Shown here: positions 9,971 through 23,435 of the stretch, one piece after another
How the letters are laid out: every line of letters begins with the position of its first letter
Position numbering within the stretch: position 1 is the stretch's first letter
DNA from: a phage
Sequence record: PV467749.1
DNA length: 64,000 nt
Reading direction: 5' to 3' (one strand)
Position numbers and translations under genes: made by a program
Notes under the pieces: generated by a model
Told to the model about the DNA's origin: nothing
The model's input: only the letters and a program-made list of their open reading frames with translations
Database searches by the model: none

Positions 9971-10213
9971 TTACAGTACTTTACTATCAATGGCAACTAC
10001 TTTTTTAACATTAACGGCGTGGATCACTTCCTTCGTGTTTTTAGTACTGAATACTTTCGCCGCTCCTTGTTCGACCGTGATACGATAGCGACCATTAACA
10101 TCAACCATATTAATAAAGTCCGGCGTGCTGAATGGTGTTGTTTTACATTTGAGTACTGTTAACAGTTCCACCAGCGATGTAGTTTCTTTGATACGTTTTT
10201 CTAAAGTAATCAT
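9971..10213 (-). CDS. Hypothetical protein
   Basis: Track ORF trimmed to MITLEKRIKE; N-terminus and upstream region resemble the 10271 gene. Confidence 0.5.
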   Translation of the reverse strand: MITLEKRIKETTSLVELLTVLKCKTTPFSTPDFINMVDVNGRYRITVEQGAAKVFSTKNTKEVIHAVNVKKVVAIDSKVL

Positions 10214-10270
10214 TTTGTTTCCCCCGTGTTGGTATGTACATATAGTACTAAAACATTTGAGTACTGTCAA

Positions 10271-10489
10271 TTAGATAATATTATATTTCTTAAAATAAAA
10301 TGCGTCCTGTGTTGGTTGATACTCAATTCCATTGCCGTTATTGACTTCAACTAATAAACCTTTGTCAATAAGTTTTTTAATAGTACGATACCCTTGTTGA
10401 AAATTGGTAAAATGTGAATCATTACGAAAGGTATAACCGTGCTTAACTGCTTCATCAATAGTTTTCTTTTCGATTTTAGATAATTTCAT
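10271..10489 (-). CDS. Hypothetical protein
   Basis: Track ORF trimmed to MKLSKIEKK; conserved upstream region shared with 9971 gene. Confidence 0.5.
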   Translation of the reverse strand: MKLSKIEKKTIDEAVKHGYTFRNDSHFTNFQQGYRTIKKLIDKGLLVEVNNGNGIEYQPTQDAFYFKKYNII

Positions 10490-10542
10490 TTTGTTTCTCC
10501 CGTGTTGGTATGTGTACATAGTACTAAAACATTTGAGTACTG

Positions 10543-10797
10543 TCAACGTGATATTAGTTTTATTTTCTTATTGTATTGTTGATGCTCATAAAGGTTTATC
10601 TTTCCTGTGTTCTCGATTACTATCCTGTTGTTAGTGTCCACGTCGATTACACGCAGTTTCCCGTTGCTTAACTTCCTAGGTAATAGGTTACCATTAATAA
10701 ACTCATTAGCAAGCTGTACGGCCTTTGTGATGATTCTCTGAGGTGCTTTATAGTGTACCCGTAAGATGTTATCTTTATATAGTTGAACCTTAATCAT
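10543..10797 (-). CDS. Hypothetical protein
   Basis: Track ORF 84 aa; upstream hairpin GGCGGGA/TCCCGCC. Confidence 0.5.
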   Translation of the reverse strand: MIKVQLYKDNILRVHYKAPQRIITKAVQLANEFINGNLLPRKLSNGKLRVIDVDTNNRIVIENTGKINLYEHQQYNKKIKLISR

Positions 10798-10858
10798 TTT
10801 GTTTGTCCGATAAAAAAGGCGGGAACTGATCCCGCCGTGTTGTTAGTACTGCAAGTTA

Positions 10859-11263
10859 TTAGATAACCTGGCGGCGTTTACTGTATACTGTTACACGATT
10901 ACCCTTACGATCATGTCGGATCTCTTTCTGGTTGCGAATCAGTTCACTTGGACGCTTAAGGTTTGCCAGGTGATCCGCGTGAGTCCATGCGGTGTGGTTT
11001 ACCTGTACTTTGATATCAGAATCAGCGATAAACTCATCTTGTGCGTCAAGTATTGCCGCCAGCATATCCGCTCGTTTTAGTTCTGCTGCTGTCAGTACTG
11101 GCTCAGGTGAATTCACAATATCAGAGATTTCTTTGAACTGTACGGCCCAGCGTTGACCTTTCGGTGCATCTTTGCCCATGTCTTTAAATGCTGCTCCTTC
11201 CTCGCGTGCAACAATACGGGCAGCTTCACGGGTAGCGTAGAATTTAGTAATCATGGTATACAT
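10859..11263 (-). CDS. Hypothetical protein (paralog of 22841..23107)
   Basis: Shares KFYATREAARIVAREEGAAFKDMG and C-terminal RKGNRVTVY with the 22841 gene. Confidence 0.55.
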   Translation of the reverse strand: MYTMITKFYATREAARIVAREEGAAFKDMGKDAPKGQRWAVQFKEISDIVNSPEPVLTAAELKRADMLAAILDAQDEFIADSDIKVQVNHTAWTHADHLANLKRPSELIRNQKEIRHDRKGNRVTVYSKRRQVI

Positions 11264-11349
11264 CCTATTAGTTAAGTTAGTACTACAAGTTAGAGTCTAT
11301 TATAAAGTACTATCTGGACAGTGTCAAATAGTACTTTAAATGGATTCTA

Positions 11350-11673
11350 TTACATGTCTTTCTTACGTTTTACATCGTGGTAGCGAACTGTAATTTCTTT
11401 GTTGATCTCTTCCTCGATGCGGTGAATAACTTTTTCTTTCGGGTTGAAACCTATAACGGTTTCTTTAATGATCTCCAAGCCCGTGTATTCGCCTTGTGTA
11501 CCGTAACCGTATGTAAAGGTTTCGTGTCCCAGGTCTTCCCAGCGATCACCAATCAATGCGGACACGTAGCAGGAGTGGTAAGTATTGCCGTGGCTATCAG
11601 TCCACCGATTAACTTTAATGTCAAAGGAGGTTACAATTTTCAGTTCTACTTTCTGGGTAAGGATCATAGCCAT
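11350..11673 (-). CDS. Hypothetical protein (paralog of 17861..18184)
   Basis: Shares NRWTDSHGNTYHSC and FTYGY and C-terminal VKRKKD with the 17861 gene. Confidence 0.55.
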   Translation of the reverse strand: MAMILTQKVELKIVTSFDIKVNRWTDSHGNTYHSCYVSALIGDRWEDLGHETFTYGYGTQGEYTGLEIIKETVIGFNPKEKVIHRIEEEINKEITVRYHDVKRKKDM

Positions 11674-11760
11674 TTTTATTTCTCTCTCTTTGTTAGGAGG
11701 GGAACCATTCCCCTCGCTTGATGTAAACTATTATACAGTACTAAGATACTTTGTCAATAC

Positions 11761-11943
11761 TTATTTTTTGGAAAGTTTACGCATTAATTCTACGCTTTCT
11801 TGTGAACGTTTTGCTACCTGGCAAGCTGTATGGGCAGTAAACATTTTTGTATAGTCTGACGCTTTGCCACCGAACCGAGCGGCACGTTCACGGGCACTTG
11901 GAACTAATACTATTTCTTTCTTGCAGATAGTGCACTTAGCCAT
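11761..11943 (-). CDS. Hypothetical small basic Cys-containing protein
   Basis: Track ORF 60 aa. Confidence 0.45.
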   Translation of the reverse strand: MAKCTICKKEIVLVPSARERAARFGGKASDYTKMFTAHTACQVAKRSQESVELMRKLSKK

Positions 11944-21390: not shown

Positions 21391-21480
21391 TTTTAAATCC
21401 TCGTTTGAGCGGGGAACCACTCCCCGCCTTGATGTAAAGTATTATACGCTTTTAAACTTAGTTTACAAGTACTTTTTAAA

Positions 21481-22092
21481 TTAATATTCGATTGATTCCA
21501 CTACGCCATCAATAACATTGAATTGATATTCGTTACCCTCAATCAGTGCAGTAATGTTTTCAGTAGTGAATTGATCCTCATATGCATTCTCTAAATCACG
21601 GTACAACTTACGAGATAATTCACGGATCGCATCAGTCAGTAAGTTTTCCAGGTCATCAGCAAGTGCCGCTTGTTTTACAGTTAAATCAGTGTAGCGAGTA
21701 TCAACGCAACCGCTTACCGTGTTTTCGTGTGCGTAGCGAGAGTGTGAACGTTCTACACTCATTGCCAAATCATCTTCATTCAACAAGTGACGGATTGAAC
21801 GATATTTCGTTAACGCCTTAACCTTGCGTAAAAACTTCTCAGCGTCAACGTGGTTAGTACTGATTGATGCACCGTCACCTTGCGACCAAAAACCACTGTA
21901 TTGCAATTCAGCTTCATCTATGCCGTATTCTGGTAGTACTGTTTCTTTATAGTACTCGATAACGCCCTCAGCAAAGAAATTATCCTCACATGAACGCTCA
22001 CGATCCCGAACCAGTTCGATAGCCGCCGTTTTTTGTTCTGCGTTCAGTTCAGAAAAAGCCATAACAAAAGTAGTAGTAGTGATAGTTTTCAT
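21481..22092 (-). CDS. Hypothetical acidic protein
   Basis: Track ORF 203 aa; contains GFWSQGDGASI; family not recognised. Confidence 0.55.
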   Translation of the reverse strand: MKTITTTTFVMAFSELNAEQKTAAIELVRDRERSCEDNFFAEGVIEYYKETVLPEYGIDEAELQYSGFWSQGDGASISTNHVDAEKFLRKVKALTKYRSIRHLLNEDDLAMSVERSHSRYAHENTVSGCVDTRYTDLTVKQAALADDLENLLTDAIRELSRKLYRDLENAYEDQFTTENITALIEGNEYQFNVIDGVVESIEY

Positions 22093-22316
22093 TTTGTAAC
22101 CCTCATTCAGTAGTTGATGTAAGTATTATACGCTTTTAAAAACATTTGTCAAACTATTTTATCAGGGGAGTTTTTCGTGTGCCTTACTCCTGGGCTACTT
22201 AACGGGAAGTTACTTATTTCGTTCCCCGTCCTGATGTAAAACATTATACGCTTATTGAGATAGTTTGCAAGTACTTTTTAAAAATAGTTTTCAGTACTGA
22301 ATAGTAAAAAAAAGTA

Positions 22317-22345
22317 TTGACAGCATTATCAAGTACTGGCATAAT
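22317..22345 (+). promoter_or_regulatory. Plus-strand early-type promoter
   Basis: TTGACA-17nt-CATAAT; transcript would contain CCCACCGGGTGC and downstream GCACCCTATGGG inverted partner. Confidence 0.5.
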
Positions 22346-22522
22346 ATACCCCATGACAACAGCTAACCCACCGGGTGCACAATTGTAACTATACTAAACT
22401 AATTTTTCTATAGATACACTCCCGCACCCTATGGGCTACGGCTTATCTGCCAATGAATACATTATGCCAGTACTGACAAAATAAGTCAATACCGGCAATT
22501 GTAAATTTTTCAAAAAATATGA

Positions 22523-22753
22523 TTATACTGCAATCGCGTCCAGGCTGTAATAATAATAAGTGCCGTATTGGTGTACTTTATTACCTTTTATTTCAGTACT
22601 GAATGAATCCGAACGATTTGCATATGATGTTAATTTAAAGTACTTTGATTTGCTGATACGTTGCCATACACCACAGATCCGCTGTAAGTAAGTAGTTTTA
22701 TTCGTGGTCGTATCTTTTACGGTTTTAACTTCAGTCATATACATATTAGTCAT
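22523..22753 (-). CDS. Hypothetical protein
   Basis: Track ORF 76 aa. Confidence 0.45.
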   Translation of the reverse strand: MTNMYMTEVKTVKDTTTNKTTYLQRICGVWQRISKSKYFKLTSYANRSDSFSTEIKGNKVHQYGTYYYYSLDAIAV

Positions 22754-22840
22754 TTTTATTACTCCAGGTTATAGGCGGGAAGAGTTCCCGCTCTCGATGT
22801 AAAACATTATACGCCTTTAAACATAGTTTGCAAGTACTTT

Positions 22841-23107
22841 TTATTCAAGTACTGCAATCTTTTTAGTACGGTACACGGTCACGCGGTTGCCCTTTCGGTC
22901 GAGCTTTATTTCTACCACTCGACGCGATACACTATCGGGACTTTTTAAGGCCGCTAACCAGTACTGTAATGATCTGGCGGTACTACGCTTTACAATGGCC
23001 CAACGTTTACCACGTTCCGATTGTACGCCCATATCTTTAAACGTTGCCCCGTCCTGGCGTGCGGCGATCCGAGCTTGTTCACGCGTCGCAAAATACTTAA
23101 TATTCAT
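22841..23107 (-). CDS. Hypothetical protein (paralog of 10859..11263)
   Basis: Trimmed to MNIKYFATREQARIAARQDGATFKDMG. Confidence 0.55.
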   Translation of the reverse strand: MNIKYFATREQARIAARQDGATFKDMGVQSERGKRWAIVKRSTARSLQYWLAALKSPDSVSRRVVEIKLDRKGNRVTVYRTKKIAVLE

Positions 23108-23195
23108 GCTGTTGCCCTTATCGTTGGTGTATGAATAAAACACTATTATAAAGTACTATCCCCGTGCAATAGTACTTTAAATAAATTCTATTCTA

Positions 23196-23435
23196 TTACA
23201 TTCCAACCATTGCCGCACGGATCGCAGTAGTGCTATATTTGAATCCGTCCGGTGTTTTATCTTGTCCAGTCTGTTCTAAAAATAACATCATATGACGGGC
23301 CGCATCATTGCGATTAGTGCTATCGTTAATAAAGTCCTGGGCCAACCGGTATAATGATTCATCGTTATTAATCCAAAGGCTTACATTCCAATGAGTTTTG
23401 TTTTTGTGACCTAAGAACATTTTTGATTTAGCCAT
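23196..23435 (-). CDS. Hypothetical protein (paralog of 21151..21390)
   Basis: Trimmed to MAKSKMFLGHKNKTHWN. Confidence 0.55.
   Translation of the reverse strand: MAKSKMFLGHKNKTHWNVSLWINNDESLYRLAQDFINDSTNRNDAARHMMLFLEQTGQDKTPDGFKYSTTAIRAAMVGM

What the first reader, a model, noticed from the sequence alone, without database searches (positions are those of the whole stretch)
9971..23435. Duplicated early genes scattered across the region with their promoter cassettes
Paralog pairs occur at 10859/22841, 11350/17861, 21151/23196 and 9971/10271; the 9971 and 10271 genes also share their upstream leader sequence. Together with the ~30 near-identical promoter cassettes this suggests gene shuffling by recombination between cassettes.
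Basis: seen in the sequence. Interest (0 to 1): 0.4.

Follow-up and report, generated by a model that had tools for sequence, protein, structure and literature searches.

The report
Promoter-hairpin cassettes shuffle jumbo-phage early genes
In the terminal repeat of a jumbo E. coli phage, about 50 small early genes mostly carry their own copy of a repeated promoter-hairpin cassette, and comparison with related phages shows that genes are gained, lost and swapped by recombination inside these cassettes, as already described for T4-type phages.

Summary
The window comes from an Asteriusvirus (PBECO4/121Q-like jumbo coliphage). Window 5100-25573 corresponds to its ~21-kb direct terminal repeat.

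Three of the four reported pairs are real full-length paralogs:
- 10859/22841
- 11350/17861
- 21151/23196

The fourth pair (9971/10271) is two unrelated proteins. They share only a ~57-nt promoter/leader that had been read as protein.

About 31 copies of a cassette lie in this region, all on the minus strand. Each has an UP element, a sigma-70 promoter, a conserved GTTTTACATC, a covarying G-rich 5'UTR hairpin and an RBS.

Nine related Asteriusviruses have the same gene order but differ by at least 14 single-gene insertions or deletions. Where one genome has two flanking cassettes, the other has a single hybrid cassette, with the crossover inside a shared identity block.

Spacers and hairpins are reassorted among cassettes. 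One Justusliebigvirus carries an Asteriusvirus-type gene plus promoter half inserted into a resident cassette.

That the old paralog pairs were dispersed this way is only inferred.

This matches the PeSL 'mobile regulatory cassette' concept of T4-type phages, so it is a new member of a known kind. Interest is moderate.

The parts
5100..25573 (.). Region homologous to the ~21-kb direct terminal repeat (DTR) of Asteriusvirus. Holds all the cassettes and about 47 small minus-strand genes.
   Evidence: Position 1 of fEgEco12 and of vB_Ec-M-J aligns to window 25573. fEgEco12 position 20,993 (inner DTR end) maps to about 5100. The DTR was shown by PhageTerm and restriction digests in PMC13070987.
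10859..11254 (-). Paralog a1 (131 aa, PHROG 8127)
22841..23107 (-). Paralog a2 (88 aa, PHROG 8127). The real ATG is at 23107, not the GTG at 23143.
11350..11673 (-). Paralog b1 (107 aa, PHROG 6246), preceded by a hairpin cassette
17861..18184 (-). Paralog b2 (107 aa, PHROG 6246), preceded by a promoter without a hairpin. Replaced by 28-33%-identical alleles in TH47 and ph0011.
21151..21390 (-). Paralog c1 (79 aa, DUF7249/PHROG 871). Absent or replaced in G17 and CMSTMSU.
23196..23435 (-). Paralog c2 (79 aa, DUF7249/PHROG 871). 92% aa identical to Phapecoctavirus nepoznato gp128.
21149..21480 (-). Duplicated DNA unit: gene c1 plus its cassette. 77% nt identical to 23194-23527.
23194..23527 (-). 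Duplicated DNA unit: gene c2 plus its cassette
10271..10489 (-). 72-aa ORF unrelated to the 9971 ORF. Together with its leader it is an indel unit, absent from ELP-22 and PBECO4.
9971..10213 (-). 80-aa ORF unrelated to the 10271 ORF
10490..10546 (-). Leader/promoter copy 1 (TTGACA-17-TACTAT, no hairpin), previously misread as an N-terminus
10214..10270 (-). Leader/promoter copy 2. The crossover block with copy 1 is 29 nt in ELP-22.
11299..11327 (-). Promoter of a1 (12/12, no hairpin). Same subtype as the a2 upstream region; nt similarity 11174-11351 vs 23027-23192.
23108..23195 (-). Upstream region of a2, homologous to that of a1
5954..6030 (-). promoter-hairpin cassette
   Evidence: E=3e-18
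6822..6900 (-). promoter-hairpin cassette
   Evidence: E=2e-16
7468..7542 (-). promoter-hairpin cassette
   Evidence: E=6e-11
7799..7878 (-). promoter-hairpin cassette; junction of a 1.3-kb window-extra block vs TH47
8348..8421 (-). promoter-hairpin cassette; junction of extra gene 8418-8825
8845..8917 (-). promoter-hairpin cassette; junction of extra gene 8418-8825
9153..9228 (-). promoter-hairpin cassette
   Evidence: E=2e-19
11693..11768 (-). promoter-hairpin cassette (upstream of b1); 44-nt crossover block vs TH47
11963..12034 (-). promoter-hairpin cassette
12431..12498 (-). cassette promoter with a long leader and a second promoter downstream
12957..13033 (-). promoter-hairpin cassette
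13252..13331 (-). promoter-hairpin cassette; hybrid at a relative-extra unit (55-nt identity block)
13527..13596 (-). degenerate cassette
   Evidence: E=1e-4
13960..14018 (-). cassette promoter without hairpin
14825..14885 (-). promoter without hairpin; hybrid junction of a relative-extra unit
15115..15187 (-). promoter-hairpin cassette
15551..15629 (-). promoter-hairpin cassette; junction of window-extra gene 15618-16085 (absent in 6 relatives)
16101..16181 (-). promoter-hairpin cassette; the other junction of that unit
16689..16764 (-). promoter-hairpin cassette
16917..16996 (-). promoter-hairpin cassette
18431..18508 (-). promoter-hairpin cassette
18749..18827 (-). promoter-hairpin cassette; site of a 242-nt insertion in 4 relatives
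19600..19664 (-). cassette promoter with a long leader
20299..20364 (-). promoter-hairpin cassette; hybrid, with the crossover in the hairpin-RBS block. 7 relatives carry an extra 78-aa gene here.
20761..20840 (-). promoter-hairpin cassette; insertion site in relatives
21404..21481 (-). promoter-hairpin cassette of c1
22115..22160 (-). 12/12 promoter without hairpin (second of a tandem pair)
22219..22286 (-). cassette promoter with a long leader
22769..22844 (-). promoter-hairpin cassette. Its promoter half is 39/42 identical to the foreign promoter half in Justusliebigvirus JLBYU50.
22523..22753 (-). 76-aa gene, 95% aa / 88% nt identical to JLBYU50_220 (cross-genus transfer)
23455..23530 (-). 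promoter-hairpin cassette of c2; hybrid. 3 relatives carry an extra 77-aa gene here.
23919..23991 (-). promoter-hairpin cassette, the first gene-linked copy counting from the genome end
25163..25210 (-). partial cassette (promoter only) near the genome end

Best explanation
The region is the host-takeover (early) gene block in the direct terminal repeat of an Asteriusvirus. Its small genes are organised as modular units: a regulatory cassette followed by one ORF.

The cassette contains:
- an A-rich UP-like element;
- AGTAC abutting a TTGCAA/TTGACA -35 box;
- a 16-nt spacer and a TATAAT -10 box;
- a conserved GTTTTACATC around the start site;
- an 8-9-bp G-rich RNA hairpin about 6 nt into the 5'UTR;
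- an RBS.

The cassettes provide 13-70-nt patches of identity between otherwise unrelated genes. The phage recombination machinery crosses over between them, in misaligned cassettes of replicating concatemers or in co-infecting phages. Each crossover adds, deletes or replaces one 'leader + ORF + promoter' unit and leaves a functional hybrid cassette.

The same process can copy a unit to a second site, giving paralogs. It also moves units between Asteriusvirus and unrelated virulent coliphages (Phapecoctavirus, Justusliebigvirus) whose early genes use the same cassette design.

Shown here: the cassettes, the hairpin covariation, the hybrid cassettes at indel junctions, the reassortment of spacers and hairpins, and the cross-genus footprint.

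Inferred: early timing of expression; the recombination pathway; that the three paralog pairs arose this way; and the role of the hairpin. My best guess for the hairpin (about 40%) is a 5'-proximal structure that stabilises or insulates each early mRNA, not a terminator.
For: Identity and location:
- 92-97% nt matches to Asteriusvirus genomes.
- The DTR is annotated or mapped in vB_Ec-M-J and fEgEco12, and both records start at window 25573 (PMC13070987).

Cassettes:
- 31 minus-strand copies, confined to 5954-25210.
- 39 of 47 genes have a >=9/12 sigma-70 promoter within 115 nt upstream. 26 have a 5'UTR hairpin of dG <= -8 kcal/mol.
- 11 perfect promoters in 20 kb.

Hairpin:
- 84% of cells are paired and 5 of 9 pairs show double (compensatory) changes. 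Zero of 500 shuffles reach the observed covariation, and the value is best at slide 0.
- Many G-U pairs occur on the sense strand, so the structure is RNA rather than a DNA cruciform.

Recombination:
- Gene order is collinear in the eight relatives that were chained, with at least 14 distinct unit indels carrying the direct-repeat signature.
- Three-way alignments show single hybrid cassettes with one switch point inside identity blocks of 13-68 nt.
- 27 of 52 break-points lie in cassettes covering 16% of the sequence (binomial p~3e-9).

Copying rather than convergence:
- Identical 16-nt spacers, which are functionally unconstrained, occur in distant cassettes with different hairpins. Identical hairpins occur with different spacers. 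The correlation between spacer distance and hairpin distance is r=0.09.

Paralogs travel with their regulatory DNA:
- c1/c2 share 77% nt over gene plus cassette, and a1/a2 share their upstream promoter region.

Cross-genus exchange:
- Cassette-like sequences are present in the Phapecoctavirus nepoznato and Justusliebigvirus JLBYU50 early regions.
- In JLBYU50 a resident cassette is split by [leader + gene 95% identical to window 22523-22753 + AGTACT-bearing Asteriusvirus-type promoter half, 39/42 identical]. The resident promoter half is 32/34 and the resident leader half 54/58 identical to nepoznato.

The concept and mechanism are established for T4-type phages (PMC2839356, PMC4122927).
Against: - Intergenic DNA here is almost entirely cassette, so 'break-points in cassettes' cannot be cleanly separated from 'break-points tolerated only between genes'.
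- BLAST ends also tend to extend into any similar cassette, and break-points shared by related phages are not independent events.
- Some junctions show only microhomology or no cassette (6599|6890; 19726|19991).
- No orthologous gene was found at a new position, so literal shuffling of order is not seen.
- The paralogs are old. Pair b1/b2 has different promoter types.
- No transcription data exist. Early timing, the start site and the hairpin's role are all inferred.
- The hairpin leaves about 5-8 unpaired 5' nucleotides, more than is ideal for protection of a 5' end.
- The donor of the JLBYU50 insertion is not among the genomes examined. In the window a ~240-nt element separates the gene from the next cassette.
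Confidence: 0.8

Rival explanations
1. The three 'paralog' pairs are not duplications within this genome. They are separate acquisitions of members of widespread early-gene families from a pool shared among virulent coliphages (xenologs). Cassettes would matter only as landing sites.
For: - c2 is 92.5% identical to Phapecoctavirus nepoznato gp128 but only 67% identical to c1. JLBYU50_221 is about 70% identical to all of them.
- The b2 locus holds 28-33%-identical alleles in TH47 and ph0011.
- The families occur in hundreds of phage records across several genera.
Against: - c1 and c2 share 77% nt identity that includes the same cassette spacer (ACTAAGTTTAAAAGCG), and a1 and a2 share an unusual promoter subtype. 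This points to copying of gene plus regulatory DNA within one lineage.
- The direction of the c2/nepoznato transfer is unknown and may be outward from Asteriusvirus.
Confidence: 0.3
2. The cassettes are alike only because each early gene needs a strong sigma-70 promoter, a stabilising hairpin and an RBS (selection or convergence). Indels arise by illegitimate recombination and survive only when they fall between genes.
For: - Promoter hexamers, the UP element and the RBS are functionally constrained.
- Intergenic DNA is nearly all cassette, so any viable break-point will look cassette-associated.
- A few junctions have only microhomology.
Against: - Identical 16-nt spacers and identical hairpin loops occur in different cassettes, and they are reassorted.
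- Hybrid cassettes show a single switch inside long identity blocks.
- A chimeric cross-genus cassette carries the Asteriusvirus-specific AGTACT half.
Confidence: 0.07
3. The units are moved by a dedicated mobile-element mechanism (homing endonuclease, transposase or site-specific recombinase) that recognises the hairpin.
For: - The GGGG...CCCC hairpin is conserved. The PeSL authors themselves speculated about a protein acting on it.
Against: - The variable units are 47-135-aa ORFans with no nuclease or recombinase domain. The eight paralog and leader-pair proteins give no Pfam hit except DUF7249, and the genes inserted in relatives have no homolog among the window's genes apart from divergent b2 alleles.
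- Crossover points vary along the cassette, from promoter to RBS, rather than sitting at one site.
- G-U pairs indicate an RNA structure, not a DNA one.
Confidence: 0.03

Closest known systems
PeSLs (promoter-early stem-loops), the mobile regulatory cassettes of T4-type phages (Arbiol et al. 2010, PMC2839356; Comeau et al. 2014, PMC4122927)
   Same: - Intergenic composite of an AT-rich upstream region, a sigma-70 consensus early promoter, a GGGG...CCCC stem-loop with G-T/G-U pairs, and an RBS.
- Sits in front of small non-essential ORFans.
- Clustered in a hyperplastic region.
- Insertions, deletions and replacements between close relatives have their crossovers inside the cassettes.
- Proposed as a route of horizontal transfer. 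The permuted [leader-gene-promoter half] insertion in JLBYU50 is what integration of a PeSL mini-circle would leave.
   Different: - The host lineage is a Rak2-like jumbo phage (Asteriusvirus), not a T4-like phage.
- All copies lie in the direct terminal repeat.
- The hairpin sits uniformly about 12-14 nt after the -10 box, inside the transcript. In PeSLs it lies between or over the promoter boxes or just before the start site.
- No T-run follows the hairpin, so terminator function is doubtful. Separate canonical terminators exist.
- The cassettes carry a genus-specific AGTACT motif.
- Mini-circles and promoter or terminator activity were not tested.
RpoD-like early promoters with UP-like elements in Rak2-like jumbo phages (vB_PcaM_CBB, GAP32; PMC5259590)
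   Same: - Sigma-70 consensus promoters with an upstream A/T element.
- Concentrated in a block of short hypothetical genes and extending into the ~22-kb terminal repeat.
- Interpreted as early host-takeover genes.
   Different: - Only 18 such promoters were reported for CBB.
- That paper describes no hairpin, no cassette repetition and no role in recombination.
Early regions of Stephanstirmvirinae (Phapecoctavirus nepoznato, Justusliebigvirus JLBYU50; rV5-type promoters, PMC3606486)
   Same: - Same unit design: TTGACA-type promoter, TTACAT, G-rich hairpin, RBS, small ORF, with ~85-95-nt intergenic gaps.
- Shared genes at 88-95% identity.
   Different: - Different -10 variants (TAAACT, TAAGAT, TAAAAT).
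- AGTACT is almost absent.
- No paper found in these searches describes the cassettes in these genera.

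Membership tests
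PeSL-type regulatory cassette | [quoted passage not shown] | tested here: met
   Eleven 12/12 matches and about twenty 10/12 matches on the minus strand, preceded by AAAAAGTAC.
PeSL-type regulatory cassette | Adjacent stable stem-loop, typically GGGG...CCCC with some G-T pairs | tested here: met
   26 hairpins, mostly -9 to -16 kcal/mol. Covariation and G-U pairs. The position (after the start site) differs from the five PeSL subclasses described.
PeSL-type regulatory cassette | Fills the gap between the stop codon of one small ORFan and the RBS/ATG of the next, in a hyperplastic region | tested here: met
   Typical intergenic gap 80-95 nt, nearly all cassette. The region is the most variable part among the relatives.
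PeSL-type regulatory cassette | Insertions, deletions and replacements between close relatives have their crossovers inside the cassettes | tested here: met
   At least 14 unit indels with hybrid cassettes. 27 of 52 break-points lie in cassettes.
PeSL-type regulatory cassette | The stem-loop acts as a transcription terminator or attenuator | tested here: inconclusive
   No T-run follows the hairpins. The terminator scan lists canonical terminators elsewhere (e.g. 14618-14643, 18973-18994, 9316-9343) and none of the main G-rich hairpins; its only cassette-associated hit is a weak 5-pair site at 5942-5957 in the RBS region. Activity was not measurable here.
PeSL-type regulatory cassette | Formation of circular 'mini-circles' by recombination between neighbouring cassettes | not testable with these tools
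   Only an indirect footprint: a circularly permuted unit inserted in a JLBYU50 cassette.
PeSL-type regulatory cassette | Host phage is a T4-type myovirus | tested here: not met
   The window is an Asteriusvirus, a Rak2-like jumbo phage. It therefore works like a PeSL but lies in another lineage.
Asteriusvirus direct terminal repeat | Homology to the experimentally defined DTR and its ends | tested here: met
   fEgEco12 positions 1-20,993 align to window 25573 down to about 5100. The DTR is annotated in vB_Ec-M-J. Whether this particular genome has the repeat in two copies cannot be seen from one window.
Pfam DUF7249 / PHROG 871 (pair c) | Score above the Pfam gathering threshold over the full length | tested here: met
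   50.7 and 45 bits against a cut-off of 27. PHROG E-values 6e-29 and 1e-29.
PHROG 6246 (pair b) and PHROG 8127 (pair a) | Full-length profile match | tested here: met
   E-values from 1e-26 to 5e-41. Function unknown; no Pfam or PDB relative.

The most novel reading that the evidence does not exclude
The cassettes may be more than a within-genus recombination substrate. They could be a common 'linker' that ties the early regions of unrelated virulent coliphages (Asteriusvirus, Phapecoctavirus, Justusliebigvirus, Vequintavirus) into one exchangeable pool of promoter-equipped host-takeover genes. Units would move as circular or linear [leader-ORF-promoter] modules during co-infection, and the jumbo phage's terminal repeat would act as the main reservoir. 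In addition, the 12-fold excess of AGTACT, placed against the -35 and -10 boxes in the cassettes, may mark an Asteriusvirus-specific DNA-binding or DNA-modifying factor that controls these promoters.
Probability: 0.35. Interest if true: 0.6.

Novelty: new member of a known kind. Interest (0 to 1): 0.4.

Why it matters
It extends the PeSL idea from T4-type phages to a jumbo-phage lineage and to the terminal repeat. The idea is that short regulatory cassettes double as recombination linkers, letting lytic phages add and swap self-expressed accessory genes without breaking their neighbours.

It also provides unusually clean sequence footprints: hybrid cassettes, and one chimeric cassette that crosses genera.

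In practice:
- It explains why the ~21-kb terminal repeat is the most variable part of Asteriusvirus genomes used in phage therapy.
- It warns annotators that TTG/GTG-extended ORFs here absorb leaders and create false paralogs.
- It identifies about 50 promoter-equipped small early genes, some shared across genera, as candidates for host-takeover or anti-defence functions.

Tried and rejected
- Rfam at gathering thresholds over the whole window: no match. tRNA/tmRNA scan: none.
- Pfam for the eight proteins: only DUF7249. PDB sequence search for the three families: nothing significant. The functions of the paralogs remain unknown; structure prediction was not attempted because it is peripheral to the finding.
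- Search for translocated orthologs (off-diagonal high-identity matches containing coding DNA) in eight relatives: none. Only cassette-to-cassette hits, paralog hits and ~200-nt intergenic repeats.
- Test of whether the genes inserted in relatives are paralogs of window genes: no, apart from divergent b2 alleles. Insertions are therefore mostly unrelated ORFans, not tandem duplicates.
- A first promoter script mis-assigned spacers because of a greedy regular expression. It was redone.
- The first chaining run missed some collinear pieces. It was redone with larger allowed overlaps.
- Consensus fold of the conserved box CCCAYMGGGTGC-N5-TGTA: only a weak 7-pair G-U hairpin with no covariation. 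Rejected as evidence for a structured RNA.
- Literature searches for PeSL together with jumbo, Rak2 or Asteriusvirus, and for AGTACT over-representation: nothing relevant.
- Cassette hairpins as intrinsic terminators: rejected on sequence grounds because there is no T-run.

Full report
**What the window is.** Megablast of 9900-23500 finds 92-97% identical but patchy matches in Asteriusvirus genomes (PBECO4, 121Q, G17, fEgEco12 and others). No record covers more than 76% of the query. In vB_Ec-M-J the homologous DNA is annotated as a 21.5-kb direct terminal repeat. In fEgEco12 a 20,993-bp repeat was identified by PhageTerm and confirmed by restriction digests (PMC13070987). Both records start at a base that aligns to window 25573, and the inner repeat boundary maps to about window 5100. 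The finding therefore lies inside the terminal repeat, where all genes run on the minus strand, inward from the genome end.

**Check of the observation.** All-against-all BLASTP of every ORF and alignments from RBS-supported starts confirm three full-length paralog pairs:
- 11350-11673 / 17861-18184: 39% identity over 107 aa, E=4e-27.
- 21151-21390 / 23196-23435: 67% identity over 79 aa, E=8e-36.
- 10859-11254 / 22841-23107: E=7e-17, with conserved blocks at both ends and a ~45-aa internal indel.

Each pair falls in a single PHROG family (6246, 871 and 8127). The second pair is also Pfam DUF7249.

The fourth pair is not a pair of paralogs. The 85% match lies in the first 20 codons of TTG-extended ORFs, which are really a shared promoter/leader at 10490-10546 and 10214-10270. 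The proteins from the true ATGs have no detectable similarity.

**The cassettes.** A strict pattern finds 24 copies. A profile built from those finds 31 on the minus strand between 5954 and 25210, with one weak hit elsewhere in the 64 kb. In reading direction the unit is:
- the stop codon of the previous gene;
- AAAAAGTAC;
- TTGCAA or TTGACA;
- a 16-nt spacer;
- TATAAT;
- GTTTTACATC;
- an 8-9-bp G-rich hairpin (GGGGAGAA-loop-TTCTCCCC and variants);
- about 10 nt, then the RBS and ATG.

Of 47 predicted genes, 39 have a >=9/12 sigma-70 match within 115 nt upstream, and 26 have a 5'UTR hairpin of -8 kcal/mol or better. The generic scan finds 11 perfect promoters, all on the minus strand, and a smaller set of separate canonical terminators.

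The hairpin is under structural selection. 84% of cells are paired, 5 of 9 pairs show compensatory double changes, and no shuffle or slid register does as well. The frequent G-U pairs would be A-C mismatches on the other strand, so the structure is read as RNA on the sense strand. No T-run follows it, so it does not look like an intrinsic terminator.

**Test of the interpretation.** I fetched the homologous region of nine Asteriusviruses and chained the alignments for eight of them. Gene order is collinear, and no orthologous gene sits at a new place. The genomes differ by single-unit insertions, deletions or replacements.

At least 14 distinct events have the direct-repeat signature: one genome has two cassettes flanking an extra 200-1300 nt, and the other has a single cassette that aligns to both.
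- Extra units in the window lie at 6599|6890, 7874|9153, 8417|8814, 10292|10486, 11774|11937, 15623|16079 and 16765|16923.
- Extra units in relatives lie at window 13245-13328, 14825-14885, 16705-16762, 18178-18302, 20281-20364, 20787-20832 and 23440-23519.

Three-way alignments show that the single cassette is a hybrid. Its upstream part matches the upstream flanking cassette and its downstream part matches the downstream one. The switch lies inside an identity block of 13 to about 68 nt in the promoter, the hairpin or the RBS segment.

The leader pair of the 9971 and 10271 ORFs behaves the same way. The 10271 ORF plus one leader is missing from ELP-22 and PBECO4, with a 29-nt crossover block.

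Of 52 distinct break-points, 27 lie in hairpin cassettes that occupy 16% of the sequence. This count has limits. Nearly all intergenic DNA here is cassette, BLAST ends drift into similar cassettes, and related phages share events.

**Copying versus convergence.** The 16-nt spacer between -35 and -10 is not constrained in sequence, yet identical spacers recur in distant cassettes (23891/22753; 20283/16902/16674; 15097/13239; 23435/21390). They are combined with different hairpins. Identical hairpins also occur with different spacers, and spacer distance and hairpin distance are uncorrelated (r=0.09). The cassettes are therefore mosaics of each other, as expected from repeated crossovers within them.

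**The paralogs themselves.**
- Pair c is 77% identical at the DNA level over exactly the gene plus its cassette (21149-21480 vs 23194-23527).
- Pair a shares an unusual promoter subtype without a hairpin, and upstream DNA (11174-11351 vs 23027-23192).
- Pair b has two different promoter types.
- Both copies of all pairs are present in the relatives, so the duplications predate the divergence of these phages.
- Copy c1 is absent or replaced in G17 and CMSTMSU. The b2 locus carries 28-33%-identical alleles in TH47 and ph0011.

**Exchange beyond the genus.** The DUF7249 copy c2 is 92% identical in protein, and 84% in DNA, to gp128 of Phapecoctavirus nepoznato. Many Stephanstirmvirinae and Vequintavirus records share 80-88% identical stretches with a few genes of this repeat.

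The early regions of nepoznato and of Justusliebigvirus JLBYU50 use the same unit design of promoter, TTACAT, G-rich hairpin and RBS. In JLBYU50, the cassette that precedes the DUF7249 gene in nepoznato is split. Its promoter half (32/34 identical) now precedes a gene that is 95% identical to window 22523-22753. That gene is followed by an Asteriusvirus-type promoter half (39/42 identical to the window cassette at 22769-22844, including AGTACT), which is fused to the resident leader half (54/58 identical to nepoznato). The flanking gene is orthologous at 93%.

The inserted [leader-gene-promoter half] is a circular permutation of the Asteriusvirus unit. This is what integration of a cassette-bounded circle would leave, or a double crossover in a donor where the gene is followed directly by such a cassette. 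The actual donor is not among the genomes I examined.

**Comparison with what is known.** This is the PeSL concept of Arbiol et al. 2010 and Comeau et al. 2014, described for T4-type phages: strong sigma-70 promoters joined to GGGG...CCCC stem-loops in front of ORFans in hyperplastic regions, mediating modular shuffling and forming mini-circles.

The differences are:
- the phage lineage;
- confinement to the terminal repeat;
- a uniform hairpin position inside the 5'UTR;
- the doubtful terminator role;
- the AGTACT motif.

RpoD-like promoters with UP elements in early and terminal-repeat regions are on record for the Rak2-like phage CBB, but without hairpins or a recombination role. I found no paper that links PeSLs to Asteriusvirus or to the rV5-like and phi92-like phages.

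**Verdict.** It is a new member of a known kind, of moderate interest. The side observations deserve their own follow-up, above all the 12-fold excess of AGTACT.

Noticed in passing
whole window; densest at 5234-30526; none in 1-5233: The palindrome AGTACT occurs 274 times against 22 +/- 5 expected (12-fold). The density is about 7/kb in 5.2-30.5 kb and about 3/kb beyond. It is found in coding DNA in all three frames (4.2/kb) and in non-coding DNA (11.8/kb). It has fixed places in the promoters: AGTAC-TTGCAA against the -35 box, and CAGTACTG-TATAAT against the -10 box. Nine Asteriusvirus loci show the same density, but the Phapecoctavirus and Justusliebigvirus early regions almost lack it. No paper was found. 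It may be a site for a phage DNA-binding or DNA-modifying protein.
   Followed up: partly
6509-6529, 9261-9281, 12531-12551, 14517-14537, 16212-16232, 22415-22435 (-) and 22367-22387 (+): Seven copies of a conserved box, CCCAYMGGGTGC-N5-TGTA (0 expected). Each minus-strand copy lies about 35 nt downstream of a promoter embedded in, or just after, a terminator stem (TTGACT/TTGACA-17-TGnTATTAT/CATAAT), and about 60-190 nt upstream of a standard cassette promoter. Together these form ~200-nt repeated intergenic elements at the ends of gene clusters. Only a weak G-U hairpin is predicted. The function is unknown.
   Followed up: partly
146-5005 (-): Tandem array of about 22 small paralogous genes (65-91 aa, 25-63% identical), mostly with overlapping stop and start codons and no promoters between them. 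It lies just outside the terminal repeat and contains no AGTACT.
   Followed up: no
25876-30476 (-): A second array of about 60-70-aa paralogous genes on the other side of the repeat boundary, with 7-11-nt spacers.
   Followed up: no
30570-50825 (+): At least 16 consecutive genes of about 360-450 aa. The homologous genes in relatives are annotated as RCC1 / 'regulator of chromosome condensation' (ATS1 superfamily) paralogs.
   Followed up: no
23900-25573: The outermost ~1.6 kb of the terminal repeat has no convincing gene. It contains an 8-bp-period repeat tract (24671-24822), plus-strand promoter-like sites (24200-24227, 24541-24569) and a partial cassette at 25163-25210. The physical genome end, by homology, is at 25573.
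   Followed up: partly
12305-12498, 22092-22286 and 19498-19664 (-): Three cassette promoters are followed not by an RBS but by a ~100-nt leader with a longer hairpin (GGACGGGGAACGAAATAAGTAACCCCGTT...) and then a second 12/12 or near-consensus promoter before the gene. These are tandem promoters or a possible short non-coding transcript.
   Followed up: no
9355-9939, 13592-13948, 14012-14269, 19984-20283 (-): Homologs in relatives are annotated as Ser/Thr protein kinase, GNAT acetyltransferase, DksA-like zinc-finger protein and 'spackle'. This fits a host-takeover early block. The annotations were not verified here.
   Followed up: no
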